Positions 5,471 through 54,542 of a stretch of 64,000 nt of DNA are shown in pieces. Where the stretch lies: contig NC_092377.1 of the NCBI RefSeq assembly GCF_030028105.1, positions 83,606,569-83,670,568 on the forward strand. Direction: 5' to 3'. Under the pieces are notes generated by a model, which worked only from the letters and a program-made list of their open reading frames with translations, made no database searches and was not told the DNA's origin. The stretch comes from Mobula birostris (Eukaryota). Numbering within the stretch: position 1 is the first letter of the stretch; the number at the start of each line of letters is the position of its first letter. The position numbers and the translations under genes are program-made.

Positions 5471-5788
5471 TATATTTGACGGTTCTGGGCCTGTAGTCGC
5501 TGGAGTTTAGAAGAATTTGGGCGGGAGGGGTGAGGTTGTCTCAGTGAAACCGATTGAATATTAGAAAGCCTAAATAGAGTGGATGCGGAGAGGATGTTTC
5601 CTACAGTGGGGGAGTATGGCAGCAGAGGGCAGAGTCTCAGAATACAAGGATATCCCTTTAGAACGGAGATGAGAAGGAATTTAAAAACGGAAACACGAGG
5701 AATTCTGCAGATGCTGGAAATTCAAGCAACACACACAAAAGTTGCTGGTGAATGCAGCAGGCCAGGCTGCATCTCTAGGAAGAGGTAC

Positions 5789-5824
5789 AGTCGACGTTTC
5801 AGGCCGAGACCCTTCGTCAGGACT
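5789..5824 (-). ncRNA. Minimal type I hammerhead ribozyme motif (Penelope-associated)
   Basis: Reverse strand reads AGTC-CTGACGA-AGGGTCTCGGCCT-GAAAC-GTC-GACT: conserved core, stem II, GTC cleavage triplet, stem I AGTC/GACT. Confidence 0.72.
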
Positions 5825-7121
5825 AACCGAAAGAAGAGCTAGGAAGAGATTTGAAAGTGGGAGGGGGAGGGGGAGATCCAAAATGATAGGAGAAGTCAGG
5901 AGGGGGAAGGATGGAGCCAAGAGCTGGACAGGTGATTGGGAAAAGGGATATGAGAGGATCATGGGACAGGTGGCCTAGGGAGAAAGAAAAGGGGGAGGGG
6001 GGAAAAACCCAGAGGATGGGCCAGGGGGATAGTCAGAGGGACAGAGGGAGAAAAAAGAGAGTGAGAGGAAGAATGTGTGTGTATATAAATAAATAACGGA
6101 TGGGGTACGAGGGGGAGGTGGGGCATTAGCAGAAGTTAGAGAAGTCAATGTTCATGCCATCAGGTTGGAGGCTACCCAGACGAAATATAAGGTGTTGTTC
6201 CTCCAACCCGAGTGTGGCTTCATCTTTACAGTCAAGGAGGCCGTGGATAGACATGTCAGAATGGGAATGGGATGTGGAATTAAAATGCGTGGCCACTGGG
6301 AGATCCTGCTTTCTCTGACAGTCCTTCCAGGTGAGGCGACACTTCACCTGTGAGGCGGCTGGGGTGATATACTGCGTCTGTTTCTCCCGATGCGGCCTTC
6401 TCTCCCTCCTGGCACTTATCCTTGTAAGCGGAACAAGTGCTACACATGCCCTTACACTTCCTCCCTTACCACCATTCAGGGCCCCAGACAGTCCTTCCAG
6501 ATGAGGCGACACTTCACCTGTGAGTTGGCTGGGGTGATATACTGCGTCCGGTGCTCCCGATGTGGCCTTCTTTATATTGGCGAGACCCGAAGCAGACTGG
6601 GAGATCGTTTTGCTGAACACCTACGCTCTGTCTGCCAGAGAAAGCAGGATCTCCCAGTGGCCAGGCATTTTAATTCCACATCCCATTCCCCTTCTGACAT
6701 ATCTATCCACGGCCTCCTCTACTGTAAAGATGAAGCCACACTCAGGTTGGAGGAACAACACCTTATATTTCATCTGGGTAGCCTCCAACCTGATGGCATG
6801 AACATTGACTTCTCTAACTTCCGCTAATGCCCCACCTCCCCCTCGTACCCCATCCGTTATTTATTTATATACACACATTCTTTCTCTCACTCTTTTTTCT
6901 CCCTCTGTCCCTCTGACTATACCCCTTGCCCATCCTCTGGGTTCCCCCCCTCCCCCTTTTCCTTCTCCCTGAGCCTCCTGTCCATGATCCTCTCAAACTC
7001 CTTTTGCCAATCACCTGTCCAGCTCTTGGCTCCATCCCTCCCCCTCCTGTCTCCTCCTATAATTTTGGATCTCCCCCTCCCCCTCCCACTTTCAAATCTC
7101 TTACTAGCTTTTCCTTCAGTT

Positions 7122-7157
7122 AGTCCTGACGAAGGGTCTCGGCCCGAAACGTCGACT
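7122..7157 (+). ncRNA. Minimal type I hammerhead ribozyme motif (Penelope-associated)
   Basis: AGTC-CTGACGA-AGGGTCTCGGCCC-GAAAC-GTC-GACT; intact CUGANGA and GAAA core, GGG/CCC stem II, palindromic ACGT stem III. Confidence 0.8.
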
Positions 7158-7224
7158 GTTCCTCTTCCTAGAGACGCTGCCTGGCCTGCTGGGTTCACCA
7201 GCAACATTGATGTGTGTTGCTTGA

Positions 7225-7420
7225 GATGGAATTTCTTTAACCAGGTGGAATTCATTGCTACAGATAGCTGTGGAAGCCATGACTTTGGGTATACTGAAAG
7301 TGAAGGTTAATGGCATCTTGATTAGCAAAGGTGTCAATGGTTACAGGGAGAAGGCAGGAGAACAGAGTAGAGAGGGATAATAAATCAGCCATGATGGAAT
7401 GGCAGAGCAAGCTTGTGGTA
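7225..7420 (+). mobile_element. CR1 3' end (continuation of the element at 2950-5682)
   Basis: ggttacagggagaaggcaggag...aaatcagccatgatggaatggcagagca, typical CR1 3' UTR; resumes directly after the Penelope insertion. Confidence 0.75.
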
Positions 7421-7479: not shown

Positions 7480-8700
7480 ATTAATCTGATTAATTTCTCA
7501 TCCCTTGACAAAGCTACCACCCAAAGAATCAATCTGTGAACTTTTGCTCTGCTCCTTCAATTGCAAGTCCATGATTCCTCAGGAAAGGAGACTAAATCTG
7601 TACATCAGATTCAGGCTTTTATCATTGATATTGTCATGAAATTTGTTGTTTTGCACCAGCAGCACAATGCAAAACGTAATATCACCATCAGTTAGAAAAT
7701 TAAATAGATCGTTGAAAATACAAAAAATAAAATAGTGTTCATGTGTTCATAGACCATTCAGAAATTTGATGGTGGATGGGAACTAGCTGTTCTTAAAGCA
7801 TTGAGTGTATACCTTCAGGTTCCTTTACCTTCTCTGCTTTGGTAATAACGTGAAGAGGGAAATAATATTCCCGATGTAACCATACCAGGCCTCTACAGAA
7901 TTGGAAAAAAAAAGCTTCCCTGTTTATGTACTCAAATCCTCCATCCTAATTGCTTGATTTCAGTGATCTGTGTACGAGGGCACCAATGTCAACTCTAGTC
8001 AAATCAAGTTTATTGTCATATGCACTAGTATGTTGATGTACAGGTAACATATAGCTAGGGTGCAGAAGTACTGTGCAGTCTATATTTGAAAATGTGGAGC
8101 AGACAGCGAGTTTGTAAATCTGGCAGGAAAAAGGGATGTTAGAAATGGAGAGGATGGAGAACTGTGGGAGGGGTGGGGTCAGGTGACAGATAAGGAGTGC
8201 CAAGAGTGTGGTGTGGCACAGGCAGAGACACACCCAGCCCCGAGACACCAGGCAAGGTCACTTGATTCCATACAATTGGTTTATTTACCATTACAGAACG
8301 TCTTTGTGGTGCTTTGTGCTCCCTCCACTCTCCCTTCCCCTTTTTCCTGCCATGATTCCCCTCCCCCTGCTCCCTTCTCACTCTCAGTCCACAATAGAGA
8401 CCCATATCAGAATCAGGTTTATCTTCACTCACCTATGTCATGAAATTTTGCTTTACTTTGCAACGACAGCAGGTCAGTGCAATACTTAAAATTATCTCTC
8501 TGTCTGTCTGTCTGTGTCTCTCATACAGTATGCTTATGCTTCTTCACATAGTGCAGAGGGAACACGGAGACACAGGAGGCTGCAGCAACACAGGTGATGC
8601 TCAAGAACTCAGCAGGTCAGGCAGCATCTATGAAGGGAAATGCATAGTCAATATTTTGGGTCAAGGCCCTTCATCTGAACATGGGGAAGATTACTAAAAT
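7480..8700 (-). mobile_element. Cluster of old LINE/SINE fragments (CR1, Rex1/L2-like, Penelope-derived short repeat at ~8565-8690)
   Basis: Similarity to other repeats in the window, including a decayed hammerhead-containing segment at 8645-8680. Confidence 0.5.
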
Positions 8701-9248: not shown

Positions 9249-9358
9249 TGTGGACCTGCTAAGTTATTCCAGCAGATTGTTTGAAATTCTGGAGGTGGTA
9301 AGTAGTGTGTACTGTCAATTGGCACAGAAACCAATATGCAAGTAAATTTATTTAGGTA

Positions 9359-10946
9359 CAGTGGCATGCAAAAGTTTGGGCACCCTTGATCAAAATTTCT
9401 GTTACTGTGAATAGCTGAGTGAGTAAAAGATGACCTGATTTCCAAAAGGTATAAAGTTAAAGATGATACATTTCTTTAATATTTTAAGCAAGATTAGTGC
9501 ATTATTTTTGTTTTGTACAATTTTAGAGTGAAAAAAAGGAAAAGAGCACCATGCAAAAGTTTGGGCACCCCAAGAGATTTGAGCTCTCAGATAACTTTTA
9601 ACAAGGTCTGAGATTAATTAGCTTGTTAGGGCTATGGCTTGTTCACAGTCATCATTAGGAAAGACCGGGTGATGCAAATTTCAAAGCTTTATAAATACCC
9701 GGACTCCTCAAACCTTGTCCCAGCAATCAGCAGCCATGGGTACCTCTAAGCAGCGGCCTAGCACTCTGAAAATTAAAATAAATGATGCCCACAAAGCAAG
9801 AGAAGGCTATAAGCAGATAGCAAAACGTTTTCAGGTAGCTGTTTCCTCAGTTTGTAATGTAATTAAGAAATGGCAGTTAACAGGAACGGTGAAGGTCAAG
9901 TTGAGGTTTGAAAGACCAAGAAAACTTTCCAAGAGAACTGCTGGTAGGATTGCTAGAAAGACAAATCAAAACCCATGTTTGACAGCAAAAAACCTTCAGG
10001 AAGATTTAGCAGACTCTGGAGTGACAACTGCACAAATATGACCTCCATGGAAGAGTCATCAGAAGAAAACCTTTCCTGCATCCTCACCACAAAATTCAGC
10101 ATCAGAAGTTTGCAAAGGAACATCTAAACAAGCCTGATGCATTTTGGAAACAAGCCCTGTGTTCTGATGAAGTTAAAATAGAACTTTTTGGCCGCAATGA
10201 GCAAAGGTATGTTTGGAGAAAAAAGGGTGCAGAATCTCATGAAAAGAACACCTCTCCAACTGTTAAGCATGGGGGTGGATCGATCATGCTTTGGGCTTCT
10301 GTTGCAGCCAGTAGCATGGGGAACATTTCACTGGTAGAGGGAAGAATGAATTCAGTTAAATACCAGCAAATTCTGGAAGCAAACATCACATCATCTGTAA
10401 AAAAGCTGAAAGTGAAAAGAGGATGGCTTTTACAACAGGATAGTGATCCTAAACACACCTCAAAATCCACAATGGACCACTTCAAGAGGAGCAAGTTGAA
10501 GGTTTTGCCATGGCCCTCACAGTGCCCCGACCTAAACATCATCGAAAATCTGTGGATAGACCTCAAAAGAGCAGTGCATGCAAGACGGCCCAAGAATCTC
10601 ACAAAACTAGAAGCCTTTTGCAAGGAAGAATGGGCGAAAATCCCCCAAACAAGAATGAAAGGTTCTTAGCTGGCTACAGACTGCATTTACAAGCTGTGAT
10701 ACTTACCAAAGGGGGTGTTACTAAGTACTGACCATGCAGGGTGCCCAAACTTTTGCTTCGGGCCCTTTTCCTTTGTTGTTATTTTGAAACTGTAGAACAT
10801 AGAAATAAAAAAGTTTTCTTAAAATATTAAAGGAATGTGCCATCTTTAACTTTCTGCCTTTTGGAAATCAGGTCACCTTTCACTTGCTTAGCTATTCACA
10901 GTAAAGGAAATTTTGACTGGGGTGCCCAAACTTTTGCATAGCACTG
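9359..10946 (+). mobile_element. Tc1-family DNA transposon, IR-DR type, with disrupted DD34E transposase (~9736-10731)
   Basis: TA|CAGTG...CACTG|TA ends; ~210 bp inverted repeats, each with two copies of GCAAAAGTTTGGGCACCC; transposase motifs SDEVKIELFG, TVKHGGGSIMLW, QQDSDPKH, PDLNIIENLW; frameshifts and a deletion. Confidence 0.95.
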
Positions 10947-11074
10947 TATATGGTAGAATGAATGTAAAATAGGACAGAAAATGCAATAAACCCTCAACAG
11001 GTCTCAAAAGCCCAAAATTCAGCAACCTCGTTGTAGAGTGTGGCTACTACATTAATCTAGGATTTTATTTTATT

Positions 11075-16910: not shown

Positions 16911-18053
16911 AAACCTAGTTGGCACACTGACTGACTGTGGATTTCAACCTCCACCAAATATAGAATTTCCAGAAAACTTCAGAAGGCCAAGATGAAAATT
17001 ATTTTTTCCTTCCTAACCGAAGTCAATTTTATTCAACTGATCTCTACTCACCAGGAAAACCAAATCTGGAACTGTTTATGCGACTTATCAGGGTTCCATC
17101 ATCACTTCAAGTCATTGCATTGCAAGGAGTAGCCTGTGAATGTATTTGTGGGAAACTCATCTGAAGGCTATTTTAATAGTGAGATATAATTAAATGATTT
17201 TAAATGGATTAAAATACAACAAATAATATTACCCATTTGGACACCATATGTGCTATATTGCAACAGATTAAATATTGAATTTAATCTCTTGGTATCAGTG
17301 GATAAACCAGTAGCAGTTACCATTGTTTAGAAGTAAGAAAGGGTTCTGTGAGTCTAGTTAAATGTTTGCCATCCTCACACTTCAAATAATTTCTATTGTT
17401 TTCCTTTAAGGACAAGAAGCTTCACTTGTATCAGCCCTCAGCTCCAGTTCATCACCATGTCAACACTGGCAAAAAGACACAAAAAAATCTGTCATTTGCT
17501 GATCAAGTGGACCTCTGCACTGTGCGTTTACACTTATAGAAAGTGTTATAGTACAAATGCCGCACTGTATTGAAATGCTTTGACAATTTATTGTGTTTTA
17601 AAACAATAACAGATCTTCATTGCAATGGACACAGCGGAAAATATTTTGGATCCAAAGATTAATCTTGAGTCTAAATTTCTCTGTCAAATCCACTGAAATT
17701 TTTATTGAGGGCTTTCTTATAGAGCAAAAGGTTTTGACTTATTAGTGATAACCCTCCCAGCAATGAGTCTAACTGGATATCTTACAGTGGTGCACCTTGC
17801 AGCTATAGGTGAACACACAAACTTCAGTTTCCGATAGTTTCCCCAATTCAGAAGGCCAGCCTCTGTGGCTGAAAAACATCCAGACATAATTGATCAATAA
17901 TTAATTTTCCCTCCTTTTTGCCAGTTTTCAGCCTGCGAGCAAATATTATCATCCACTCTCTGTGTATAGGGTAGATGGCTGAACTAATACGGGATTTTGC
18001 CTTACTTAGGTATCTGTTTGCATCAGTAAAAAAAGATGGATAATTTCTCACTA

Positions 18054-18227
18054 CAAACAAGAGAAAATCTGCAGATGCTGGAAATCGGAGCAACGCACAC
18101 AAAATGCTGGAGGAACTCAGCAGGCCAGGCAGCATCTATGAAAAGAAGTACAGAAATGTCGACTACTTTTTTCGATTGCTGGTGTCTGGCCTGCTGAGTT
18201 CCTCCAGCATTTTGTGTATGTTGCTCA
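18054..18227. mobile_element. Miniature palindromic Penelope-derived insertion
   Basis: Arms gagcaacgcacacaaaatgctggaggaactcagcaggccag / ctggcctgctgagttcctccagcattttgtgtatgttgctc; TSD GATAATTTCTCACTA (18039-18053) / GATAATTTCTTATTA (18228-18242). Confidence 0.75.
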
Positions 18228-18409
18228 GATAATTTCTTATTATCTTTTTACTATCCCTAAGGGTTATCCCTTGGGATTGAAAATAACTTTCTTCCACTTC
18301 TATGGCTTCTAAATTAGACTTTGTGGAGAGGATGCAGCAGGTCTTTACTTACCGGTGCCAGAGATTTCTATTACTTATTTTATATTATATATTTTTTCTA
18401 ATATAAAAA

Positions 18410-20990: not shown

Positions 20991-23091
20991 CATTAACCTC
21001 TCCTTCCACAGTTCCATTGCCAGGACCCATGACCTGAATTGAACTGTGACTCCATGACCTGAAGTGTTGACTTTCCTTACTGTAACAGATGCTGCTCGAC
21101 CTGTTCGGATCCTCTTACAGTCTTTTTTTACTTTTAACAGGAAGATTGCTCTGACCATCGTGGCCACAATTTATGGTCCACTTTCCACAGTAATCGTGTG
21201 GACAACTGAATGGAGTTCGAATGACTACATACTGAAAAGTAAGTTATTTAGCCCATTGCTAAACCCAAAAGAAAGGATGACAATAAATAGACACAGAAGG
21301 TAAAGCAGCCAAATGTATATTGTTGTTCCTCTTTATGCCTTGTAGCATTTGTCTGAATTTTATGAGGCTGAGTTACTAGCTTGATGCTCTACCCAGCACA
21401 AATTGAAAGCGTTCAAGGAGACAGCTGGATTCAAAACCTGGACCACTCACCTGGAATTCTGGTGGGGATGCCACTACATCAGCAGCTGGCTAAATGTATA
21501 TTGCTTTCATATAAAAATTCATCTCCTGTTAATACTGATATTAACCAACGTCAGTTAAAACCTTAAAATAACAGACCACGTCAACGAAATGTGCTAGGTA
21601 TCAGTAGTGGCTTCTGGGTTAAATTTATTTCTTTAAACCAAATGCAGTTCACTTTCAAATTAAAGTTTAAATTGGTTAGCTGCTCTCAGATTCTTTGTGA
21701 TGGATTTGAGGTAAAAATTTAGCCATTCAATGCTATTTTAGACAGGCTATCAAACCAAATTAATCCAATCAGAGAGATCTAAGGGATGCTAATCTTCCCA
21801 GTTTGTTAATAGGTTACACCATTTACAATCTTTACAAGATGTGTATTGAATAATCCAATTCCAACTGGTCTGAAGGGATTTAAAACGGTTCATTTCTGGA
21901 GCTGATTGCTTTAAGAAGCTACTTCCTTCCTGTTGCGGTTCTGATGTGCATCGACATGTGGATTATTCATCTACTGCTCTTTGTGTTTAACAGTGGAATT
22001 GGAGTAAATGAACACAGGCCTCATTTTAACAGTATGCAAGGAACGTAAAGGCTAAAATGTCCAAGCAATGGTTTTCTGCCCATTTTAGAATATGCATTCC
22101 CTGTTACAGCATAAGAGCCTCTTCGATCACCCTTGGTGCTGGGTGTGGATTGCAAGTTAGGTGCAAGTTACGGCACTGTAACAGAAAGACTTTGATAGTA
22201 AACAGATTAGCACCTCATTGGCTTTCTGCTGGCAACCCTAAATTTGACTTTCTTCAGCTAGGAAATGGCAGACTACTTGTGACAGAGCCCTTAGAGGGGG
22301 CACATGAAGCTTCATGGCTTTGGAATAGCACAGCTGTCTATTTCCTCCTCCAGTAAAAGGAGTCTATACTGTGGTCGTAACTAAGTCTCCAACACTTAGC
22401 ATTGGCTGCACAAAGCATCAGTGCATCCCTCAGAACGTACTCCTGTAGCCTGAAATGTGTCAGTCAGCAGCATCCCCTTGTGGACATCTCGCTGTGGTGG
22501 AAGACCAACAAGTTTCAGGCATGCTAAAGTGTGACTTTAACCAAGCTGATGATCTTTCAGCAGCACTTGATGTCTGCTTGGTATGTGTCCCTGGGAATAG
22601 CCCGTAGATCGGAGAGCCCTCTGCTACATAGCTGCTGGGGATACACCAGGACACGGACCCTTGCATCCATCTCCATACTCTCATTTGCAAATCCACAGTC
22701 TGCAAAGTTGTAGGTGACCATCTCTTCACCACAGCAACCATCCCAAGGATAGCGTACATGGTGGTGGGGTTTGGGGGGAGGGGGGTGCGACACATTGACT
22801 GCATAAGAAGGCTTTGACAGGGAGGGATCCCATTACAGCCAGGCAGGTGGGGTCTTGGTGCTAGTTGGTGAGATCTGGTCATGAAATGTTCTGCCATATG
22901 GTTTGGACAGTCTGCTTAGGGAAACACCCTATCACATCCTTCGTGTCTCTATTCTACAGTATCTGCTGGATGTAATGCACTGACAACTGCCTATTTGAAA
23001 CACAAAATAATCTGCAGATGCTGGGATCAAAGCAACACTCACAACACGCTGGAGGAACTCAGCAGGTCGGGCAGCATCCGTGGAAAAGATC

Positions 23092-23127
23092 GGTCAACGT
23101 TTCGGGCCGGAGCCCTTCGTCAGGACT
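23092..23127 (-). ncRNA. Minimal type I hammerhead ribozyme motif
   Basis: Reverse strand AGTC-CTGACGA-AGGGCTCCGGCCC-GAAAC-GTT-GACC. Confidence 0.72.
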
Positions 23128-24039
23128 GTAGAGGGAAGGGGCAGAGGCCCTATAAAGAAGGTGGGGGGAGGGTGGGAAGGAGAAGGCTGGTAGGTTCCAG
23201 GTGAAAAACCAGTTAGGGGAAAGATAATGGGCTGGGGGAAGGGAGGCAGGAGGTGATAGGCAGGAAAAGTGAAGAAGGAATAGGGGAAAACACAAGGGGT
23301 AGTAGAAGGAGGCAGAACCAAGAGGGAGGTGGTAGGCAGCTAGGGGAGGGGGCAGAGTGACATAGGGTTAGAGGAAGGGAGGGGGAGGAAATTACTGGAA
23401 GTTGGAGAATTCAATGTTCATACCAAGGGGCTGGAGACTACCTAGACGGTATATTAGGTGTTGCTCCTCCATCCCGAGTTTAGCCTCATCATGGCAGTAG
23501 AGGAGGCCATGTATGGATATATCTGGATAGGAGTGGGAAGCAGAGTTGAAGTTGGTGGCTACTGGGAGATCCTGTCTGTTTTGGCAGACGGAGCGGAGGT
23601 GCTCGACGAAGCGGTCCCCCAATCTGCGTCGGGTTTCAGTGATGTAGAGGAGGCCGCACAGGGAGCACCGGATGTAATAGGTGACCCCAACAGACTCACA
23701 AGTGAAATGTTGCCTCACTTGGAAGTACTGTTTGGGGCCCTGAATGGTGGCAAGAGAGGAGGTGTAGGGACAGGTGTAGCACTTGCACTTACAGGGATAA
23801 GTGCCAGGTGGGAGATCCGTGGGGAGAGACGTGTGGACCAGGTAGTCACGGAGGGTCGGATCCCTGCGGAAGGTGGAGAGGGACGGAGAGGGAAAAATGT
23901 GCTTAGTGGTGGGGTCCTGTTGAAGGTGGCGGAAGTTGCAGAGGATAATGTGTTGGATCCGGAGGCCTGGAACCTACCAGCCTTCTCCTTCCCACCCTCC
24001 CCCCACCTTCTTTATAGGGCCTCTGCCCCTTCCCCCTAC

Positions 24040-24075
24040 AGTCCTGACGAAGGGTACCGGCCCGAAACGTTGACC
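24040..24075 (+). ncRNA. Minimal type I hammerhead ribozyme motif
   Basis: AGTC-CTGACGA-AGGGTACCGGCCC-GAAAC-GTT-GACC. Confidence 0.72.
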
Positions 24076-26289
24076 GATCTTTTCCACGGATGCTGCCCGA
24101 CCTGCTGAGTTCCTCCAGTGTGTTGTGAGAACTGCCTATTGGAATTACGGTGAAAGGTATTAACTTGGAAATACTTTTCCAGAAATGTCAGGTAGAGCAA
24201 CAACGTCCAGCTGACTAGGACATTGCGCAGCAACAGTGTGAGGCTTATCTACTGCAACTCCAAGCACAGGTAGAATCTCAGGATATAGTGAAACTTAGTG
24301 CCCATGTACTTTGGATCCACATACTGCCTGTTACAATCATGTATGAACGTTGTCATCAGGATGAGAGCAATATTTTCCCCCATACTCTCGGGGAACTTGC
24401 ACATAATAACCCATCAGAATCACCCCATCACGGATCCCCAAATAAATTGGAAAACAAAGGATCCCTTGCAGCACACAGACAAACAACAGTGCCTGATTTC
24501 AGAATTAACAGGAAAGCTAGCTGACTCCCAAACATTAAATTGGACAGCACTGCGGATATCCACTTAGAGCAGTTGGATGTAGTTTCCGATTGCCTCCCCA
24601 ACATCTATCTTGGAGAGCACTTCCATCATGTACAAGGGTAATATACTGGTCTGAGATGACCAAGCAGGCATCCACACCTCTGTGCTGCACATAGGCATTG
24701 GTATCCCTGAGTAGCACATGGCTGTCAGAGACTACCCCACCTGGTTCAGCAGAGGTTTGCTCTGGATGCATTTACTGTCACAGAGTGGACTAAATCTAGT
24801 TTGTCAAGGCCTTGGATGGGACCTTATAGTGCACATTTAATAGTGGAATGCCCATCTCCAATACCTGATGTCTCCCTCTCCCTCTTCTGCCTATTGATGA
24901 AGGCTTCCTTGTGGGGTCTGACCAGCTGCCAGCCAGAAGCAGAGTATTGTATACGTCCAGCAGGTCTGGGTCATCCAGTCTGCCAGTGACCCATTGCTTC
25001 TGTCAGTTTCATTCATGCCAAGGGAACTAATAGGGCCAGTCAGCCCCTTCAGAGTCAGTGGTAGATCCAGTTTCCCCTGCTTGCTATTGTCTAACACCTC
25101 TGTGTTAGATAATCGCAGGACAGGAAGCTCTGGGAAGCTGTGTTGTCCGTGGTCTTTCTGTTGTAAAGATCAACATAGTAGGATCTGCAGATCCTCAGCT
25201 TTTGTGTCTGTGAGGATGTTACTGAGTTCAAGGCTGTAGATTACAGAGCTCCCCCTGTGAAACTTTAGGAAGGAGAAATGGGAGCACATCTTCTCCTGCT
25301 CCATAAAGACATGTCTAGCTTGAACTTTTCAGCATACAGCAAGGCATTAACACTATCGAGATGGTTGATCTTTCCTTTAGTCCTTGTCTCGGTCTCTGCT
25401 GGAGCCTCTAGACTGGTAGGGGATGTGTCTGCGTTCCTCTGGGGGTTGTTAGAGCCAGCTCTTTCTCAGATTGCCACGTGTAGGTACAAGCACATTTTGG
25501 GCAGGCTGTAGGGAACACAGGATGTAACTTTTTACTTTCTCGGAAGTGCTTGGTCTAGTGGCCTTCCAACTTATAGTTTTTTTCAGATGAGTGTACTGCA
25601 TTGGACAGACTCTTGTCCAGATTTGTTAGAGTTATGATACAGTCTGAGTCTGAGTTGTCCATGTACCCACATTTCCTTCAATAGCAAACACTGAGGGAGT
25701 GGGGATAATGACTTCACTTGCATCCATCCTTAGTCTGACCTTCACCCGGTGCTGGCTGTTCCAAAATCCAAACAGGTCCTTGAGGTCCACGTAGCTTCCT
25801 GTTCATTTGACATAATAAGCCAGGAAGGTGAGGACATCCACAACAGGCACATGTGAATTAGGCACTTCCTGAGTGGGGAGGGTGAAGAATAGTTTTACCT
25901 TCAACAGTGACAGTGGTGCTTTGTTGTCCTTCTTCCCAAAACTCCTATAAAACTTTCTATCATCCAACCCCCCCACCCCCCCAGTTGCTTGAAGTTCAAT
26001 ATATCCACAACCATGGCAAGTCCTGGAGGCAATAGAGATCCTTCAGATCCTTCCTCCCTCTAAAGGAACTGATGCTCATTCACAGCTCAATGATTCTAAT
26101 AGACATAGATAACCTATTCAAATATATATAAATTACTTTGAAAAAATCATTACAATTGGAAATAAAAGTTGATGAAAAATACTTCAAAACACTAACAAAA
26201 ACTGAAAGCATTAAAACCAAATAAATTAACTTGTTACCTTTTTCCACAGGGTAAATAGTTTGTTGGTACACCATCAAAGTTGAAGTGGC

Positions 26290-33560: not shown

Positions 33561-34082
33561 AATTTTGATATTAACACCTGAGCGTATACTATTATTTCAA
33601 CTGTAGAGATTGAAGGGATATATAACTGGTAGTAATTAAAGGAAAATGTGTACACTTTAATCATAGCTTGGAAATTCTGTGCAAGATACTTGTAAAGCTG
33701 TTTCCAGATGACATCGGAACTTAATAACTACAACTGAAAGATATGATTGAGGAAGCAATTATAACCTGATCCGTGTGTGATGTAGAGCCTCTCAGGATAT
33801 AGATATTTAAACCTACTGTTTGGATGCATCATGATTGATATAGTTTCTGCATTTTAACATGGAGTGTGGTGTTTCTTGACATCACAGGAGAGATGGACAG
33901 AATAGAGATAGATATTAAAAAGAAGAAGGAAAGCAATGAATTAGAAAGTTTTAAGGGCAAAAATTAATGCACCGTTTGGTATAACATTCAACAAAAACCC
34001 TTAGTTCTGGCTCTGGTTAAAACAAAATTGAAAATCCCTTGACCTGTTTGAAAGAGGACAGCTAATTATCCCACTACTGAAC

Positions 34083-37000
34083 TGTTACAACCTCGGACTC
34101 TGCTGGGGAGTCTGAACATCCTCGCAGGCAAGCAGCTGAAAGGGGGCCAACAAAACATGCTCATGAGTTTGCATGTTCCAGCCTATTGGAATTTATTTAG
34201 TTGTATTTACCTCCCTTCCTTTCATTTCACTCTTGTCGAGCCTTGGCTGAAACACAGTGATGGCAACACTCCCTGCTTGCCTTAGTCCTCGTTACGAGAA
34301 AGAAGACTTCAATTTTGATTAGCACTGTCAGGGAGCAGAATTAATTTAATTTTAAGTTACTGTTTCCAAGCTGCAGTGTTGGCATTGGCTTTTAGTTTGA
34401 GAGTTTAAATTATGGCCCTGTTGGCCTAGTGTTTATTATTTTCCTTTTGTTCTGCATAGTTCTTATTAAAATTCAGTGAACTATTCAACCTGCTTCAGTG
34501 TCTCTTCCTCTGCACTTGGGTCATCACCACACATCATGTCAGCAAGAGGCGACCATAAAAATGGACCAAGTAGAGAGAGCACAGCTGACCATGGCCCTGA
34601 CATTTGTTGGTCAGGTCAGAGTAAAGCTAAATCAGTGGAGGCTGAGCTGGCAGAAGTGGCTCGCGCTGTGCAACAACTATGTTCAGAGAGGCAAGCCCAG
34701 TCCAAGCAGGAAAAACAGGTGTCAGCTCTCGCAAGGACAATTCAGCAACTTACCACAGACGGTCAGATTCAGGTGGTAGCCATTACTGCTCTCGCTGCCG
34801 CTATGCAGCAGCCTTCTGCCAGGACAGATCCATACCCAGCATCAGCTCCCCCCCACATCATCCTCTGTAGAAGTTTCATCAGCCTCAGCCACCAATGTCC
34901 CAGTTCTCTTGGCAGTTTTCAGACCTGAACAGAGTATTCCTTCACTGGGCTGATCCTCTGGTGCCCCTTTCATGACCCAGTGTGAGCTGACTTTCCAAGC
35001 GCAGTCTGGACAATTCGGAGATGATGCACATAAACTGCCCTATATGGTGACTCTCTCAGAGAGAATCCCACTTAGCCTGTTCAATGGTCAAAGAAAACAA
35101 GGTTCCCATACAGCCTAGTCTTTCCAGCAATTTGTAATTGAGTTCAAGAGAGTACTGGGTCAGGAGGCTGCTTACTGACTCTTGGACCTGTGCCTAGGGA
35201 AATGGACAGTGAGGGATCATGCAATTAAGTTCTACATTCTCACAGTTGAGAAACGTGAGCTGAGCACAGGACTCCAGCATGAGGTCGCAGTGCAGGATGA
35301 GCAGGAAAGTCTTGATGACCTGATAAATCTGGCCACTTGAATGGAAAAATCGGGTAACTGAATGGTGCAGAGAGAGAATGCCCCAAGCCATCTACTCTTT
35401 GGATCACTGGCTGTCTTCACCCACCCTCCCACCACCCAGTATGCAGTCCGCAGTCGAGCCCATGCAGGTGGGGCACCCATGCCGATCTCAGGAGGAATGA
35501 AATTGGTGCAGGAGAACAGGTTGCTGCCTCTACTGTGGTGCTTCTGGACATTACTGGGCATCATGTCCCAGGTGCCCAGTCTCAGAGGATACCCTTCAGC
35601 AGGAGGAGGAATTTGAAAGGGTCGATCCTCCCTGCAAGCATTTTTCCCGAACTGAGTAATAATACCAGCTTCCCTGTAGTGAGGGTCCGGGACCCATGAG
35701 CGTCCGGCATTTATTGACAACACAGCATCCGGCAACCTCATGGATATCTCTTGGGCTCAAAGATGGGGAGTTCCCACTCAACAATTGAGAGGAGATGTTG
35801 ATGTCAAAGCTTTGGATGGTCTGCCTCTGGATCCATCGTTCCACAGTACCCTCCAACTTGTGCTATAAGGTAATCATAGGGAACTGCTCTCCTTCTGTCT
35901 TCTGGATTCACCTGAACTGCCATTGGTGCTTGGCCTTCCCTGGCTATCAAGACACAACCCATGGATTGATTGGTCCTTAAAGACACTCTAAGAGTGGGGT
36001 AGACATGCCTGCCTACTACCTGTTTGGGTCCAGCTCAAGCCGCTGTCAGCATATCCCCTCCTATGCCCTGAAAACTCCACAGAGACAGCACTGCACGTCA
36101 GGATTGAACTCAGATCATGGAAGGTCAAAACAACAACCTTGCACTGGATATCAGTAAGACCAAGGAACGGATTGTGGACTTCAGGAAGGGGGAAAGTCAA
36201 GGGAACACATATCAGTCCTCATTCAGGGGTCAGCAGTGGAAAGTGTGAGCACCTTGTGAAGGAGAAACTAAAAATCAGTAAAGTCTGGGTTGACTGAAAT
36301 GTCTCGTGCAGTGCAACAGCAGCTTTCACAGACACGAGACCAGTCCAAGCAGGAAGAAGAGGTGTCAGCCCTCACAGTGACAGTTCAGCAACTCATCGCA
36401 GACAGCTGGATTCAGGTGGTAGCATTTAATACTCTCACAGCCTAAGTTCATCAGCTCATGACTGACAGTCAGGATCAGGTGACAGCTCTTGCTGCTACAG
36501 TCCAGCCAGGTCGGTCTCCCTCCCAGCATCTCCTCTGTAACACTCTCATCAGCCTCAGCCACGACTGCCCTGACTCCCATGACCAGGCCAGAACTTGAGA
36601 ATTCCTCCACCAGTCAGATACTCCAGTGACCCCAGCAGCTGCTGGAATTTTATTACCTAGTCTGAGCTGACTTTCCAAGCCCAACTAGGTCAGTTTGGTT
36701 TTGAAGCACATTAACAGCCTTGCATGGTGAATCCCTCAGACTTCTCAACACTCTATGGGAACAAGGTTCCACCACGGCCCAATCATTCTAACAGTTTGTG
36801 GTCGAGATCAGAGAGTTTTTGACCTTCCAGTACGGGGATACGAGGCTGCCCACCGACTCCTCAACCTGTGGGAAGGAAAAGGGACAGTGAGGAACTACGC
36901 AGTAAAGTTCTGCACACTTGCGGGTGAAGCGGGGAGAAACGAGAGATCCCTCATCACTATCTTCCAACATGATAAATCTGGCCTTTTGATTCAACAACCA

Positions 37001-38474
37001 GGCAATGGAATAGCACAGAGAAAGAATGTCCCCAGCTTCCTACTCCTTAGATCACCGTCTGTCTTCACCCCATTCACATTACCCAGTACATTGTCTGCAG
37101 AAGGGCCTGTGCTGGTGGGACACAAGCACATACTTCAAGAGAAACAAGATTGCTGCAGGAGAAGAGGATCCTGCCTCTACAGTGGCAATGCAGGGCACTT
37201 CTGGGCATTATGTCCCTAGTGACCAATAAAAGAGGATTTCTGTCGGCAGGAGGGGAAATTCTGATGGGTGATTTCTTCCTGAAAGCATTTTTCCCTAATC
37301 ACATGATGCTCCCAGCTTCTTTGTCATTGGATCTCAGACCCATTAATTTCAGGCATTTATTGACTCTGGGGCAGATGGGAACTTCATGGATATCTCTCGA
37401 GTTCAAAGGTGGAAAATTCCAACTCAGCAATTTCAAGAGAATATCAATGTCAAGGGTTTGGATGGTCAACCTCTGGGCACCAGCAAAATCCATCTTTCCA
37501 CAAAACCCCTCCAACTTGCGCTAGAAGACAACAATAGGGAACAGCACTCCTTCTGTCTTGCTGATTCACTTGAACTGCTGCTGGTGCTTGGCCTTCCCTA
37601 CCTATCTCAACACGACCCATGGATCGATTGGTCCCTAAAGGTGCTCCAAACGTGGCTGTCAAATATCTGTGTGGGTCCAGCTCAAACCCCTGTCAGTGTC
37701 TCCCCTCCTGTGTCTGCTGCTAGTGCGGACCTGTGTGGCATGCTCCAGCTGAATATGTTGAACTTCTAGAGGTCTCCAATAAGAAAAAGGACACCTCCCT
37801 GCTGCTGGACAGTTGGTGCAACACTGCAAACTTCTCTGCTGTGCACTCGGACACAATATGACCAGTAGGCCTCTCAAACCAGGGGTTAAGTTCTGCCTGG
37901 CATCTGAAAATCTTCCTTTGAAAGTTGAGAGCTGCAAGTTAGCTCTATGCTATGCTCTATTCATTCGGAACTTCCAGCGTGCACAGGTCTCTGGTGCCTC
38001 AGGAGCTGTGCACAGGGAGGAGGGCCCTGTCACAACCACAGACTCTGCCGCAGAGCCTGGGTGCCCTACAGGTGGGCAGCTGAAAGGGATCAGCAATCAT
38101 ACTCATGAGTACGCTTGTTCCAGCCTATTAGGGTTTCTTCACGCTTGTATTTAACTCCCCTCCTTTCATTTCAGACTTGTCAAGTCCTGACTGAAGCACA
38201 TTAACAGCAACAGTCCCTGCTTACCTTAGTCCTTGTTCCAGGGAGGAAGACTACAGTTCAGATTGACACTGTAATTAATTTAGTTTGAAGGCACTGCTTC
38301 TGAGCTGCAGTGCTCGTGTTACCTTTTAGTTTGAGAGATTTAGTTATGGCGCTAGTAACCTAACATTTATTAATTTCCTTTGTTTTGGACAATTCTTATT
38401 AAAATCCAGTGAATTGTTCAATTCACTTCAGTGTCTATCCCTCTGCACTAGGGCCATTACAACACAGTATGCCA
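34083..38474 (+). mobile_element. Non-autonomous Gypsy LTR element with two decayed gag-protease cassettes; LTRs 34083-34540 and 38028-38474
   Basis: Paired ~450 bp LTRs; PPT CAGGGAGGAGGG before TGTCAC; gag motifs GTVRNYAVKFCTLA and CLYSGNAGHFWALCP; protease FIDSGA/FIDNTASGN and LVLGLPW/YLS.H.PWIDW twice; degenerate TSD TGAAC/TGGGC. Confidence 0.82.
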
Positions 38475-38644
38475 TGGGCACAACAGGTTTTTCAATCAGA
38501 GGGAGGATATCTGACCATTTCCTTATGAATGGGCTTCCCATCATCATTGTCTTCATGAATTGCCCACACATTGAGGGCTGTGTGCTTCTTTATTTAGAGC
38601 CTTACATTTAATTTTTTTTCTTTTCCATATTCAAGTTTTCTTTA

Positions 38645-38895: not shown

Positions 38896-40159
38896 TATTT
38901 TATGAATTGAATGGCAGTTTTTAGTTCCTTCAAAAGACGTTCACGTGCCTGTGGTTGACACGCAGTTATAATTAATAAATCCTTTAGTTGCTAAATAGAG
39001 ATTACACATGAGTATTGTATTTAGCTGTGAGCTTGCATGCCTGCGTCATCAAAATGCTGCAGTCAGAGGTGAGGCATTGAAGTTTGATCGAGGGTGAAGC
39101 TAGGGGTATGAGTAGCAGAGGTGATGCTGAAGCATAAGTCTGAGTGTGGGTCACAGTCTAGAAAGCTTAGAGGAGAGGGAGGGCGACAGACTATTGACTT
39201 GAAAGATAGGAAGTCTTGTGACAGGACTGAAATGGGGGAAGGGGTGGATGGGCAAGATTTTTTGGAGCTGGTAATGTTAGTTTTCTGATCCGAGGAGTTT
39301 AATGAAAAATGGCATCTGGAGAAGGGTGAGTAATTTATAAGAAAACTAAGTGAAAATAGCAATGGAATAGAAAATCTGAGAGAGAGTCTACTGGTACAGT
39401 CGTGCTGTTGTCATTTTGATTTGGATACAGTGCAGGGCTAAACATATAGGTAATCAAACAGGACAATGGATCTACACTGGTGGTATGTCCATGGACATAT
39501 CAAAGCAAAGTTATCCTGCTCCAGATTTAAACTGATAGTTTGTCTTTGCTTCAGTTCCATGAATTCCTTTAAAAAGCTCCTCAACTACGTGAAGAGGGAA
39601 GGTGCATTTGTCCAAACATATTCCAGGAGTAAAAATACTTCTTTCAGCTTCATCAGGTTCTTGAAGGGTGGTTTAATTAAATGCATTCTAGTAAACCATA
39701 TGGAAACAATAAATACAGTAAAGGAATTTTTCATGTTTTAGTTTTGCTGCCCAAAGCAATGAGAAACTTTTCTCTCCTCCTAAAACTCCCACATTCATCA
39801 CACCATCTGCTCCACCTCTCCTGCTGCTTTGTGCACACGAACACACACACACACACACAATATGGGCACGTTGTTGTGTATCAGATGTCAGTTGCTTCAA
39901 AACTGGATAACAGCACATTCAAAGTCCAGTTTATTGTCACATGCACAAGTACATACATGCGTAGGTCAATGAAAATTTACTTGTGGCAGCAGCACAGGCA
40001 CATTCACAAGAAACCCATAAGTTAAATATACATTATACACAATTTTCCAAGAAATTACGCACAAATAGAATTTAAAAATTCCATTTTAGTGCAAAGTGGT
40101 CAAAGTGTCATAGCGTCTCTAAACCGTAGTAATTAAGATTAATAAACTGTAGTAATTTA

Positions 40160-40782
40160 CTGTGTCTGGTGCTCCCGGTGCCTCCTGTATATCGGTGATC
40201 CAACATAGATTGGGAGACCACCTTGCGGAGCACCTACACTCCATTCTCCAGAAGAAGCTGGTGGCCACCCATTTTAATTCCACTTCCCTTTCCCATTCTG
40301 ACATGTCAATCCCTGGTCTCCCCTACTGTCGTGATGAGGCCACACTCAAGTTGGAGGAACAACACCTTATATTACCTTTGGGTAGCCTCCAACCTGATGG
40401 TATGAGCAGCGATTTCTCAAACTTTCGGTAATGCCCCCCACCCCCCTTCATTATTCCCCATCCCGTTTTCCCTCTCACACTTCATCTGCTTTGTCTGCCC
40501 ACTGCCTCCCTCTGGTGTTCCCCCCCTCCCCCTTTCTTTCTCCCTAGGTCTCCTGTCCCATGATCCTCTCGTATCCCATTTGCCAATCACCTGTCTAGCT
40601 CTTGGCTCCATCCCTACCCCTCCTGTCTTCTCCTATCATTTTGGATCTCCCCCTCCCCATCCCACTTTCAAACTCTTATTATCTCTTCTTCCAGTTAGTC
40701 CTGACGAAGGGTCTTGGCCCAAAATGTCGACTGTACCTCTTCCTAGAGATGCTGCCTGGCCTGTTGCGTTCACCAGCAACTT
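40160..40782 (+). mobile_element. Penelope-like GIY-YIG fragment plus 3' region (hammerhead core mutated at 40697-40732)
   Basis: RLGDHLAEHLHS..VATHFNSTS..LEEQHLILPLGSLQPDGM; 3' region homologous to 6828-7205. Confidence 0.85.
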
Positions 40783-41080
40783 AAAAATGAGAGGACATAG
40801 TTTTAAGGTGCCTGGAAGTAGGTACAGAGGGGCTATCAGGGGTACAATTTTCACACAGAGAGTGGTGGATGCGTGGAATGCACTGCCGGCAACGGTGGTA
40901 GAGGTGGATACAATAGAGTCTTTTAAGAGATTCTTAGATAGGTACATGGAGCTTAGAAAATAGAAGACTATACGGTAGGGAAATTCTACACAGTTTCTAG
41001 AATAGGTTACATGATCGGCACAACATTGTGGGCAGAAGGGCCTGTAATGTGCTGTAGATTTCTATGTTCTATGTTCTATG
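40783..41080 (+). mobile_element. CR1 3' end with (TTCTATG)n tail
   Basis: RGHSFKV..FTQRVVDAWNALPATVVE..FKRFLDRYM; homologous to the reverse complement of 1-190. Confidence 0.85.
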
Positions 41081-48715: not shown

Positions 48716-49408
48716 GTAGGTTTCGGCACAAAAAGCAATCCTCTTTATGTACAAGATAATATTAGCCTTAAGATAATATTAACTTTGTGATCAAATATTG
48801 ACTTGCGGCGCCTCCAATTCCTCCTCGATTTGCACGCAATAGTCTTTAAACAAAGTTCTATTTGGCTAAAATAAAGTTTCAGTTGTGCATTTAAATACTT
48901 ATAAAGCGCAGGAGACATAACTGATTCGACTTTCCTCCTCACTTCGATATATTAATCGAAGTTTATTAACTACGCGGCGGCTTTTTATTTTTTTTCTTTA
49001 TCCTCCTCTGGGCTTTACGGTGTATACTTTTGCTGAAATCGCTTATGATAAATTGGCATCATAATATAGTAATCTTTTATTTTGTTTTAAAACAAACCCT
49101 TCTGATTATTCGAGAGGTTAAGATAAAAATTGTAAAAAGAATCAATATAATTCATAAAAAAGGATTGTCATTAGTTAGTCAGCAGATGAATGCCTCATTA
49201 GTAGAATTATTAGGACGATGGATGAATTGTTATTTCCAAGGAAAAAAAGAATCAATTCAACAAAGGTGCCCCTTTGATGATTATAAATACTGTTAATAGA
49301 GTAAAGGATATTTTACATCGGATATCAAAGTAGACTAAGATTAGTGATGAGTTTAACGCCTTGAGTCGTTCCATATTATTAATCCTGTTTTATTTTATTT
49401 CTATCAAG

Positions 49409-53189: not shown

Positions 53190-53290
53190 TTGCCCCGATG
53201 AAGGGTCTCAGCCCGAAACGTCGATTATTTATTCCTTTCCATAGGTGCTGCGTGACCTGCTGAGTTGCTCCAGCATTTTGTGTTTGATGT
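53190..53290 (+). mobile_element. Short Penelope-derived repeat with variant hammerhead motif
   Basis: ccgatgaagggtctcagcccgaaacgtcgat...gacctgctgagttgctccagcattttgtgt. Confidence 0.7.
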
Positions 53291-54542
53291 TATTTTTTAA
53301 TTTTACAGCATTTTGCACGAGCTTATCCGTCGTGCCTCCTGAAGATTGGGGACAAAGCATAATATCAATTTAAGAAGCTAAAACATGTATATTTTAACAA
53401 ACGCACCTGATTTGGTTGGGGCCTTCCAACATAACACAAATTTTAGAGCAAAGATTTTAACGAACGCATCTAATTGGATTGGGGCCTTGCAATTTAACTC
53501 AAATTTCAATGCAACGATACAAGATCCAGGTCTACAGCAAGCTTCAGGAGGTCGCCTTAATCTCCCGGTTATTTCTACATGTTCAGTCTGTTCACCAAAT
53601 AAACGCATCTCAACCCCAAAGAACAAGACCTCGATCGGTGACGGCTACGTTTTATGCAAAGAGTAGAAGTCATGCCACAATACGCCTCGCAGTTGTTTCA
53701 ACCAACCCTAATTTCCCCAGTGAGACATTGCAAGCATTTTAAGGATATTAGACCTGTGATAATCGATGACTAGCTGCACACTTCCTTAGTAGACACTGCG
53801 ATGAATTTAAAAGGCACATCCTACAGCATTTGCCCTCGAAAGACCATCAAGAGAAAGCTCGGAAAATTCCTACTTTCCAGTGTATTAGGATTAGGTTTCA
53901 GAACCTTGCGTAAACTTAAGAAGTGGAATTAACAGTGGCGAATCTCAAAACTAAACAGTGAAAATGCAATGTTTTTTTAAAAAAAAGGTACTGGGTTAGA
54001 TTGCTGTCATTTTCCAATTCCGGATATGCTTTCCCACGCGCCAACGAAGTGTATGGCGTTCTATTCGACCAAAAATAACAACATTAAATCCCCTTCTAAT
54101 TCCACATTGTTCCAACACACCGTTGCAACTGCAATCGCCTAGGAACAACTTGTATCTCGCTCCAAGGACACACACGTCGCGAACCAACCATGAAATTTGT
54201 TTCATTATCACATAAAGGCCTCCCGGAGCGAGAAAGAATACGGCTAGAAATGAGCCAACACCGGCGACAAAGACATGTGAATGCGATGCTCTAACCTGCA
54301 TGTTCCACATCACAGGACCATTGTCAGGGGGTCGTTTTTAAACTACTTAAAAATGTCTCTCACTTCAATGATCCAGCAAGATAAGTTGCCGTATTACATC
54401 GAACTCTGACGCTGAACGATATAATTACACAGTGGGCAAGCTCAATAATTATAGGAGCAATATATACATACCCACGTATCATTTTAAATGGAGAAACGTT
54501 AGTAAAACACAACCACGCACACATTTTCACAAGTCAAAAGTA

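What the first reader, a model, noticed from the sequence alone, without database searches (positions are those of the whole stretch)
7122..7157. Family of minimal hammerhead ribozymes carried by Penelope-like repeats
Seen: AGTC-CTGACGA-[AGGG-6nt loop-CCC]-GAAAC-GTC/GTT-GACT/C appears with an intact core at 5789-5824(-), 7122-7157(+), 23092-23127(-) and 24040-24075(+), and decayed at 8645-8680, 40697-40732 and 53193-53226. The loop II sequence varies (TCTCGG, CTCCGG, TACCGG) while the core and stem are kept, which suggests selection on the RNA structure. Established: Penelope-like elements carry minimal type I hammerheads with a very short palindromic stem III (here ACGT), reported to cleave mainly as dimers. 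Inference: this lineage has a high-copy self-cleaving RNA family in two subfamilies, with GUC versus GUU cleavage triplets.
Basis: partly seen in the sequence, partly recalled or inferred. Interest (0 to 1): 0.72.

Follow-up and report, generated by a model that had tools for sequence, protein, structure and literature searches.

The report
Penelope retrotransposon hammerheads, mostly decaying copies
The repeated motif is a real miniature hammerhead-type RNA sequence, of a kind already described, at the ends of a very abundant Penelope-like jumping gene; the inserted copies are decaying, and the motif likely cuts RNA only when two copies pair within a transcript of a rare complete element.

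Summary
The motif is real and sits at the stated coordinates. It is the published minimal type I hammerhead of Penelope-like element (PLE) pLTRs: bulge after A9, G10.1-C11.1 pair, ACGU palindrome in place of stem III. It follows a GIY-YIG endonuclease in 32 of 38 unbiased cases, and long copies show pLTR-ORF-pLTR with reverse transcriptase. The four 'intact' copies are the inverted arms of two insertions, each with a target-site duplication. About 670,000 element ends are estimated genome-wide (245 in 1.46 Mb). Conservation acts between families, not on inserted copies: catalytic G12 is lost in 45 of 137. The GUC/GUU 'subfamilies' and the loop II 'variation' are not supported. GUC leads in both families, GUU fits CpG decay, and both family-C loop variants are minority changes. 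One extra: 63 of 87 copies lacking the upstream UTR begin at hammerhead bases 1-3, and none of 14 strictly scored shorter copies begins at the cut site. This suggests uncut RNA starting at the ribozyme is what gets copied. Cleavage was not tested. The scan reported this family many times before, including in this genome.

The parts
7122..7157 (+). Minimal type I hammerhead, family A, all core letters intact, GUC triplet; predicted cut between 7153 and 7154
5789..5824 (-). Minimal hammerhead in the inverted arm of the same insertion; G10.1.U11.1 as in the EN-anchored family-A copies (18 of 19)
5683..7221 (.). One PLE insertion of two tail-outward, 5'-truncated inverted arms (family A), between 13-bp target-site duplications at 5670-5682 and 7222-7234 (1 mismatch)
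6411..6827 (+). C-terminal PLE ORF fragment: CX4CxxC linker and GIY-YIG endonuclease (Pfam PF01541 E 1.4e-4, 22.5 bits against a cut-off of 22.6); 93% identical to an 867-aa RT+EN ORF elsewhere in the genome
6828..7121 (+). Pyrimidine-rich 3' UTR / upstream part of the pLTR
7158..7221 (+). Linker and conserved tail behind the hammerhead; family 3' ends cluster at about +100 and +130-140 from the hammerhead start
23000..24129 (.). One PLE insertion of family C with two inverted arms, between 15-bp target-site duplications at 22985-22999 and 24130-24144 (1 mismatch); holds a decayed endonuclease frame at 23392-23973(-)
23092..23127 (-). Minimal hammerhead, family C, core intact, GUU triplet, 3-bp stem I
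24040..24075 (+). Minimal hammerhead in the inverted arm of the family-C insertion, GUU triplet
8583..8680 (-). Decayed short copy (U4 and G12 lost)
18051..18227 (.). Short fold-back pair of tails without the hammerhead core, with a 12-bp duplication at 18039-18050 and 18228-18239
21055..21114 (+). Old fragment: 3' half of the hammerhead and tail
40146..40783 (+). Older family-A-like copy with endonuclease remnant and decayed hammerhead at 40697-40732 (G12>A, C15.2>U)
53192..53292 (+). Decayed short copy starting at the front of the hammerhead (U4>C)

Best explanation
The motif is the minimal type I hammerhead in the pseudo-LTR of a very high-copy Penelope-like retrotransposon (RT plus C-terminal GIY-YIG, likely Neptune clade), and it likely cuts RNA only slowly, as a pair of ribozymes in a transcript of a complete element, while the dispersed copies, including those in this window, decay and are likely inert. 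Shown: the anatomy, the link to the endonuclease, the pLTR-ORF-pLTR layout, copy density, decay of inserted copies, and conservation between families. Inferred from literature: dimer- or protein-assisted cleavage after GUC. Inferred here: a lone copy folds into an inactive rod (core GACG paired with CGUC); the element's RNA starts at the hammerhead's first bases; reverse transcription starts about 100 or 135 nt behind the hammerhead start. Priming in the first pLTR would give the 100-135-nt stubs, and priming in the last pLTR the longer 5'-truncated arms, often joined as inverted pairs.
For: All published min-HHR marks are present (PMC4209133): unpaired base between 9 and 10.1 (A in 96 of 103), G10.1-C11.1, palindromic 15.2/16.2, short helix I. 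The motif lies in sense orientation behind 32 of 38 endonuclease C-termini found by protein in 1.46 Mb of random genome; reversed control 0. An 867-aa frame holds RT and GIY-YIG. Upstream pLTR with hammerhead runs into the ORF start in 5 of 14 copies with long 5' ends. For 15 copies under 80% protein identity to the young ORF, the 36-nt hammerhead is 0.82 identical to the window copy, against 0.60 for the 36 nt upstream (Wilcoxon p 6e-4). In related-species contigs loose ends pile up at 7122 and 7160, the motif's borders. Lineage-level changes go the tolerated way: N7 C>U 59 against G8>A 13; U11.1 in 18 of 19 EN-anchored family-A copies. Other hammerhead families in this genome keep core and ACGU with different, still paired stem I (A-U/C-G, G-C/U-A, U-A/C-G against C-G/U-A). 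Inverted arms, target-site duplications and bimodal 3' ends match known PLE insertions.
Against: No cleavage assay was possible. Rfam's hammerhead models do not hit. Monomer folds are no more stable than shuffles (z -0.96 to +0.64). The active dimer is computed 6-11 kcal/mol less stable than two inactive rods (tertiary contacts not modelled). The search for hammerheads behind endonucleases allowed up to 10 edits, and the identity comparison used only copies in which a motif was found, which inflates the 0.82. The tail is also conserved between families (0.73), so part of the constraint may be promoter or RT-binding sequence rather than catalysis. In family C alone, non-CpG core letters were better kept than flanks (1 of 261 against 184 of 7269, p 0.02), which family A (8 of 190) did not repeat. 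The clade was assigned by motif, not by a tree.
Confidence: 0.85

Rival explanations
1. The 36-nt island is kept as a promoter or protein-binding signal (initiator, downstream promoter element, RT docking), and its hammerhead activity is vestigial in these elements.
For: 63 of 87 UTR-less copies start at its first three bases. No strictly scored copy starts at the cut site (0 of 14). The monomer prefers an inactive rod. In the anole Poseidon element cleavage is not needed for insertion in vitro and no reads end at the cut site (PMC11167929). The Drosophila Penelope pLTR holds an internal TATA-less promoter (PMC2377424).
Against: Hammerhead families with unrelated stems keep exactly the catalytic letters and a paired stem I. 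Lineage-level changes fall on N7 and 11.1 rather than G8 or G12. The anole PLE hammerhead does cleave with protein, and core mutants abolish it.
Confidence: 0.1
2. The dispersed copies form a host-relevant family of self-cleaving RNAs under selection, in two functional subfamilies.
For: An estimated 38,000 copies keep core, stems and ACGU (14 in 1.46 Mb). Family C showed fewer non-CpG core changes than flanks.
Against: At the G12 CpG, lethal and tolerated decay are about equal (CA 36, TG 45; p 0.37), as at C15.2/G16.2 and C17/G1.1. Only 43 of 137 copies keep all core letters. GUU is a minority in both families. Window partners lie on opposite strands, so a read-through RNA would hold one sense copy inside a long hairpin; the nearest same-strand intact copies are 17 kb apart.
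Confidence: 0.04
3. A non-autonomous retrozyme or SINE-like family that amplifies as a short unit of its own.
For: Many copies are only hammerhead plus tail (87 UTR-less against 72 UTR-bearing). Non-LTR retrozymes derive from PLE pLTRs and were found in one chondrichthyan (10.64898/2026.07.22.740005).
Against: No head-to-tail array of the motif is seen in the window self-comparison. Short copies carry the linker and tail of the same families as the endonuclease-linked copies.
Confidence: 0.05

Closest known systems
Minimal hammerheads (min-HHR) of metazoan PLE pLTRs, including fish Xena, Poseidon and Neptune (Cervera and de la Pena 2014, PMC4209133; read parts 1-2 of 4)
   Same: Type I topology, conserved core, bulged base before 10.1, G10.1-C11.1, palindromic 15.2/16.2 without loop 3, 4-bp helix I, place in the pLTR, mostly single truncated copies, and pairs on opposite strands.
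   Different: Helix II is only 4 bp (7-8 bp in Schistosoma). Estimated motif number is about 74,000 with core and stems, against about 4,000 in coelacanth and 9,000 in Xenopus there (different descriptor). No cartilaginous fish is named in the parts read; supplements were not seen.
Canonical EN+ PLEs of the Neptune clade (Craig et al. 2021, PMC8557442; passages read)
   Same: Single RT plus C-terminal GIY-YIG ORF, CX2-5CxxC linker (here CX4CxxC), two cysteines between GIY and YIG, partial tandems forming pLTRs, adjacent inverted 5'-truncated copy, optional 30-40-bp tail.
   Different: Nematis shares the linker and no tree was built. Clear 12-15-bp target-site duplications are seen here.
Poseidon element of Anolis carolinensis (Frangieh et al. 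2024, PMC11167929; read parts 1-2 of 4)
   Same: Hammerhead at the pLTR-ORF junction; two RT start sites defining the tail (here 3' ends at about +100 and +130-140); uncut RNA as the main template.
   Different: There the ORF starts inside the hammerhead. Here a Met-initiated frame begins about 165 nt behind the hammerhead start, and the clade differs.
Non-LTR retrozymes (Li, Clavereau and Pollet 2026, 10.64898/2026.07.22.740005; part 1 of 5 and passages read)
   Same: Type I hammerhead derived from PLE pLTRs; present in a chondrichthyan.
   Different: Retrozymes are head-to-tail arrays; the copies here are dispersed or inverted pieces of a protein-coding element.

Membership tests
min-HHR of PLEs | Core C3 U4 G5 A6 N7 G8 A9 / G12 A13 A14 A15.1 / U16.1 H17 | tested here: met
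   4 of 7 listed window copies; majority letter at every core position in 103 random copies
min-HHR of PLEs | Unpaired base between 9 and 10.1; G10.1-C11.1 pair | tested here: met
   A in 96 of 103; G10.1 in 88 and C11.1 in 62 of 103, U11.1 in 36; the EN-anchored family-A copies have the G.U wobble (18 of 19)
min-HHR of PLEs | Palindromic 15.2/16.2 with no loop 3 | tested here: met
   ACGU in all four intact window copies; CG in 19 of 19 and 22 of 29 family copies
min-HHR of PLEs | Short helix I and helix II supported by covariation | tested here: inconclusive
   Helices form in folding. Stem I differs yet pairs in three other sequence groups (L185/L191/L199, L187/L193/L198, L119), but the search pattern fixed purine/pyrimidine at the first pair, 2 of the 8 divergent loci did not pair, and no double change was seen within families A and C
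min-HHR of PLEs | Self-cleavage as dimer or with protein help | not testable with these tools
   No assay; the sequencing runs found are contigs only and cannot show RNA ends
EN+ Penelope-like element | Single ORF with PLE RT and C-terminal GIY-YIG | tested here: met
   867- and 841-aa frames; RVT_1 E 3.6e-5 and GIY-YIG E 0.0026, both under Pfam's gathering scores; window fragment 93% identical
EN+ Penelope-like element | pLTR from partial tandems, hammerhead inside it | tested here: met
   5 of 14 long-5' copies have UTR, hammerhead and tail upstream of the ORF
EN+ Penelope-like element | Inverted 5'-truncated partner and optional 30-40-bp tail | tested here: met
   3' ends of 59 family-A copies peak at +100-105 (18) and +130-140 (27)
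Neptune clade | CX2-5CxxC linker before the endonuclease | tested here: met
   CKRNKCYTC in the translations; feature from PMC8557442; shared with Nematis
Neptune clade | Placement by RT phylogeny | not tested
   No reference PLE proteins were held; Neptune and Poseidon are the clades reported from vertebrates
Non-LTR retrozyme | Head-to-tail tandem units each with a hammerhead, no ORF | tested here: not met
   Window copies are dispersed or inverted and tied to ORF fragments

The most novel reading that the evidence does not exclude
The hundreds of thousands of stubs record the PLE replication cycle in vivo. Transcription starts at the first base of the hammerhead, so the ribozyme is a decapping-type switch that would cut a 32-nt capped leader off the mRNA. 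The commonest insertion is a 'strong-stop' cDNA running from the internal priming site to the cap of uncut RNA. Support: 63 of 87 UTR-less copies start at bases 1-3; none of 14 starts at the cut site; non-fold-back stubs have G as the first outside base in 12 of 21 (5.3 expected, p 0.002). The genome-wide G test is confounded.
Probability: 0.35. Interest if true: 0.5.

Novelty: new member of a known kind. Interest (0 to 1): 0.2.

Why it matters
As a finding it is ordinary: PLE minimal hammerheads are published, and this scan has met them in many shark- or ray-like windows. Its use is as a data set. With about 670,000 element ends, this genome gives enough junctions to ask where PLE RNA starts, where reverse transcription primes and whether cut RNA is ever the template. 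That bears on the open question of what PLE hammerheads do. The sample already says that inserted copies are not under detectable selection and that 5' ends mark the front of the ribozyme, not its cut site.

Tried and rejected
Rfam scan: no hammerhead hit. GUC/GUU subfamilies and loop-II selection: rejected. 5' ends made by self-cleavage: 0 of 14 strictly scored copies at position 33, where 42% would be expected; loose scoring gave 6 of 64 against 11.4 by chance; a small excess at 28-31 (9 copies) is unexplained. Splice-acceptor idea (polypyrimidine tract plus AG before TCC, as the D. virilis intron ends at helix I): disfavoured, since 32 of 63 front-starting copies keep the AG and share no upstream exon. 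No GT..AG joint to that place was among the joints shown (61 and 5 more not shown). Extra-G (cap) test genome-wide: G:A is 1.65 at the first outside base (3996:2420), 1.08 at the second and 0.74 in background; RG:RY is 1.08 against 0.42. But my hand count of the 200 listed rows gives about 37 GG:63 GA and 54 AG:46 AA, so there is little G excess after a purine. Fold-back microhomology or mutated UTRs can produce the skew, and inverted-arm copies show none (2 of 16): inconclusive. Exact search for a stem-I variant family GCU/AGC with intact ACGUC: 0 matches. Expression: no RNA holder listed; contigs laid cannot show ends. Lunse et al. 2017 (PMC5785218) was not held and is known here only through the review PMC6765202. 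The divergent hammerhead families had no hit to the PLE ORF within 1.5 kb, so their carrier is not identified.

Full report
Observation. The seven places are real. Four keep the 11 core letters; 5789-5824(-) closes stem II with G.U. The three decayed copies have lost U4 and/or G12. The core pattern occurs 5 times in the window against 1.09 expected. Core plus stems occurred 20 times in 870 kb of random genome and 0 times in 5 shuffles. Rfam has no model that hits it, so the identification rests on the published descriptor, not on a library match.

The four good copies are two events. 5722-6321 and 7224-6632 are 92.5% identical inverted arms; 23038-23201 and 24129-23966 are 97.6% identical. The pairs sit between 13-bp and 15-bp target-site duplications; a third fold-back at 18051-18227 has a 12-bp one; no convincing one was found for the other three copies tested. 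Differences between the two arms of one insertion therefore say nothing about selection among independent copies.

Carrier. The frame upstream of 7122 is a GIY-YIG endonuclease, 93% identical to the end of an 867-aa frame with reverse transcriptase elsewhere in the 4.0-Gb genome. It has a CX4CxxC linker of the Neptune/Nematis type (PMC8557442 passages). In 5 of 14 copies with long 5' ends, UTR, hammerhead and tail lie upstream and run into the ORF start: the pLTR-ORF-pLTR layout, which puts two same-strand hammerheads into one possible transcript. That the host is a shark or ray is my inference from recalled repeat types and from earlier scan notes; no call named it.

Copy number. I fetched 148 ten-kb stretches at fixed round coordinates of the large contigs (the six stretches chosen for long ORFs were left out). 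A profile of the tail alone found 245 hits in 1,459,800 bases and 0 in the reversed control: about 670,000 element ends genome-wide, counting arms rather than insertions. 27 places had core plus stems (about 74,000) and 14 also a strict ACGU (about 38,000).

Selection on inserted copies: none detected. Of the 245, 137 span the motif; 22 were dropped for a cut tail or a locus edge, 64 for no recognisable 3' part, and 22 for starting inside the motif or low identity. Among the 137, non-CpG core letters are changed in 112 of 1224 (9.2%) and stem/loop letters in 164 of 1487 (11.0%). G12 is changed in 45 of 137, and 43 of 137 keep the whole core. At three CpGs both decay directions are about equal (45:36, 40:32, 29:35); the loop CpG leans to CA (27:46). 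Only N7/G8 is strongly skewed, 59:13, towards the tolerated change, which points to lineages with U7. One result runs the other way: in 29 family-C copies non-CpG core changes were 1 of 261 against 2.5% in flanks (p 0.02); 19 family-A copies did not show this (8 of 190, p 0.55). Both sets were top-scoring hits, so they favour young copies.

Subfamilies. The two families in the window differ in UTR, linker and two stem II/loop letters, not in the triplet. Family C: GUC 16, GUU 6, other 7 of 29; family A: GUC 15, GUU 2, other 2 of 19. A small GUU sublineage inside family C is not excluded (C17>U 7 against G1.1>A 2).

Selection between families: present. 32 of 38 endonuclease C-termini found by protein search have the motif within 400 nt in sense orientation (up to 10 edits; reversed control 0). 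For the 15 with under 80% protein identity and a scorable tail, identity to the window copy is 0.60 upstream, 0.82 in the hammerhead and 0.73 in the tail. Contigs of related organisms leave the stretch at 7122 and 7160, the motif's borders. A pattern demanding other closing bases found 51 matches against 13 in the control. Of the 25 fetched, most are mutated copies of the main families; 8 are divergent, and 6 of these fall into two groups with different but paired stem I, an unpaired base after A9 and ACGU kept; a third variant came from the random sample.

Mechanism. A15.1-C-G-U16.1 cannot close a hairpin, so stem III needs a second ribozyme. Published min-HHRs do not cut as monomers and cut weakly as dimers (PMC4209133; review PMC6765202 passages). 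Folding predicts an inactive rod for the monomer and ranks the active dimer 6-11 kcal/mol above two rods, in keeping with a need for help. The anole PLE ribozyme cuts only with the element's protein, and cutting is not needed for insertion in vitro (PMC11167929). In this window the partner arms are antisense to each other, so a host read-through RNA would bury the motif in a long hairpin. All of this paragraph is inference.

Ends. 3' ends of 59 family-A copies are bimodal at about +100 and +135, like the two RT start sites described for the anole element. 5' ends: of 159 copies with a recognisable motif, 72 carry the UTR; of the other 87, 63 begin at positions 1-3. The scoring under-counts starts late in the motif, so the 64 remaining copies were tested apart: none of 14 strictly scorable ones begins at the cut site and 9 begin at 28-31. 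I noted the front-edge pattern before reading that earlier agents had seen it. Non-fold-back stubs have G as the first outside base in 12 of 21 (5.3 expected, p 0.002), as copying of an RNA cap would give (recalled from LINE work; no paper found). Genome-wide counts show a G excess but are confounded (see Tried and rejected). I therefore rate the 'RNA starts at the ribozyme' reading at about one in three.

What is in print. Searches: hammerhead + Penelope-like, 37 papers; hammerhead ribozyme + Chondrichthyes, 5 papers, one a 2026 preprint reporting retrozymes in one chondrichthyan; searches gave nothing on these elements' 5' ends. The library lacks most subscription papers, Lunse et al. was not held, and no supplements were read; those of PMC4209133 may list cartilaginous fish.

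Verdict. A new member of a known kind: real motif, right family, but the selection and subfamily claims do not hold. Interest 0.2.

Noticed in passing
window 49334-50608 (+): Intact forkhead exon of FOXA/HNF3 type (Pfam Forkhead_N, Forkhead, HNF_C); the host gene of this window.
   Followed up: partly
window 9673-10669 (+); inverted repeats 9357-9570 and 10739-10948: Tc1/mariner-type transposon remnant with DDE_3 transposase and about 210-bp inverted repeats.
   Followed up: partly
window about 34000-38500: Two tandem, decayed LTR-retrotransposon-like pieces (67% over 1.5 kb; weak gag and protease Pfam hits). Described only.
   Followed up: no
L185, L191, L199 and L187, L193, L198 (position 1501 on the matched strand): Two further minimal-hammerhead families in this genome with unrelated stems; L187/L193/L198 share over 1.1 kb at 87-93% but no PLE protein hit lies nearby.
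   Followed up: partly
family A, L046-L064 (18 of 19) and the family-A hammerheads of L065-L070: The copies with the longest open frames carry G10.1.U11.1 instead of the conserved G-C pair; the effect on cleavage is unknown.
   Followed up: partly
random loci such as L038, L086, L110, L139, L237, L243; window 18051-18227: Many very short head-to-head fold-back insertions joined in or at the hammerhead (41 of 159 copies have an inverted arm upstream); they would form double-stranded RNA if transcribed.
   Followed up: partly
L065 4501-4824, L066 4751-5171: The ORF's N-terminal part holds a duplicated Pro/Ser-rich block of about 210 bp.
   Followed up: no
window 5560-5682 and 7222-7400: Insertion A interrupts what looks like the 3' part of a CR1/L2-type LINE (recalled resemblance, not tested).
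   Followed up: no
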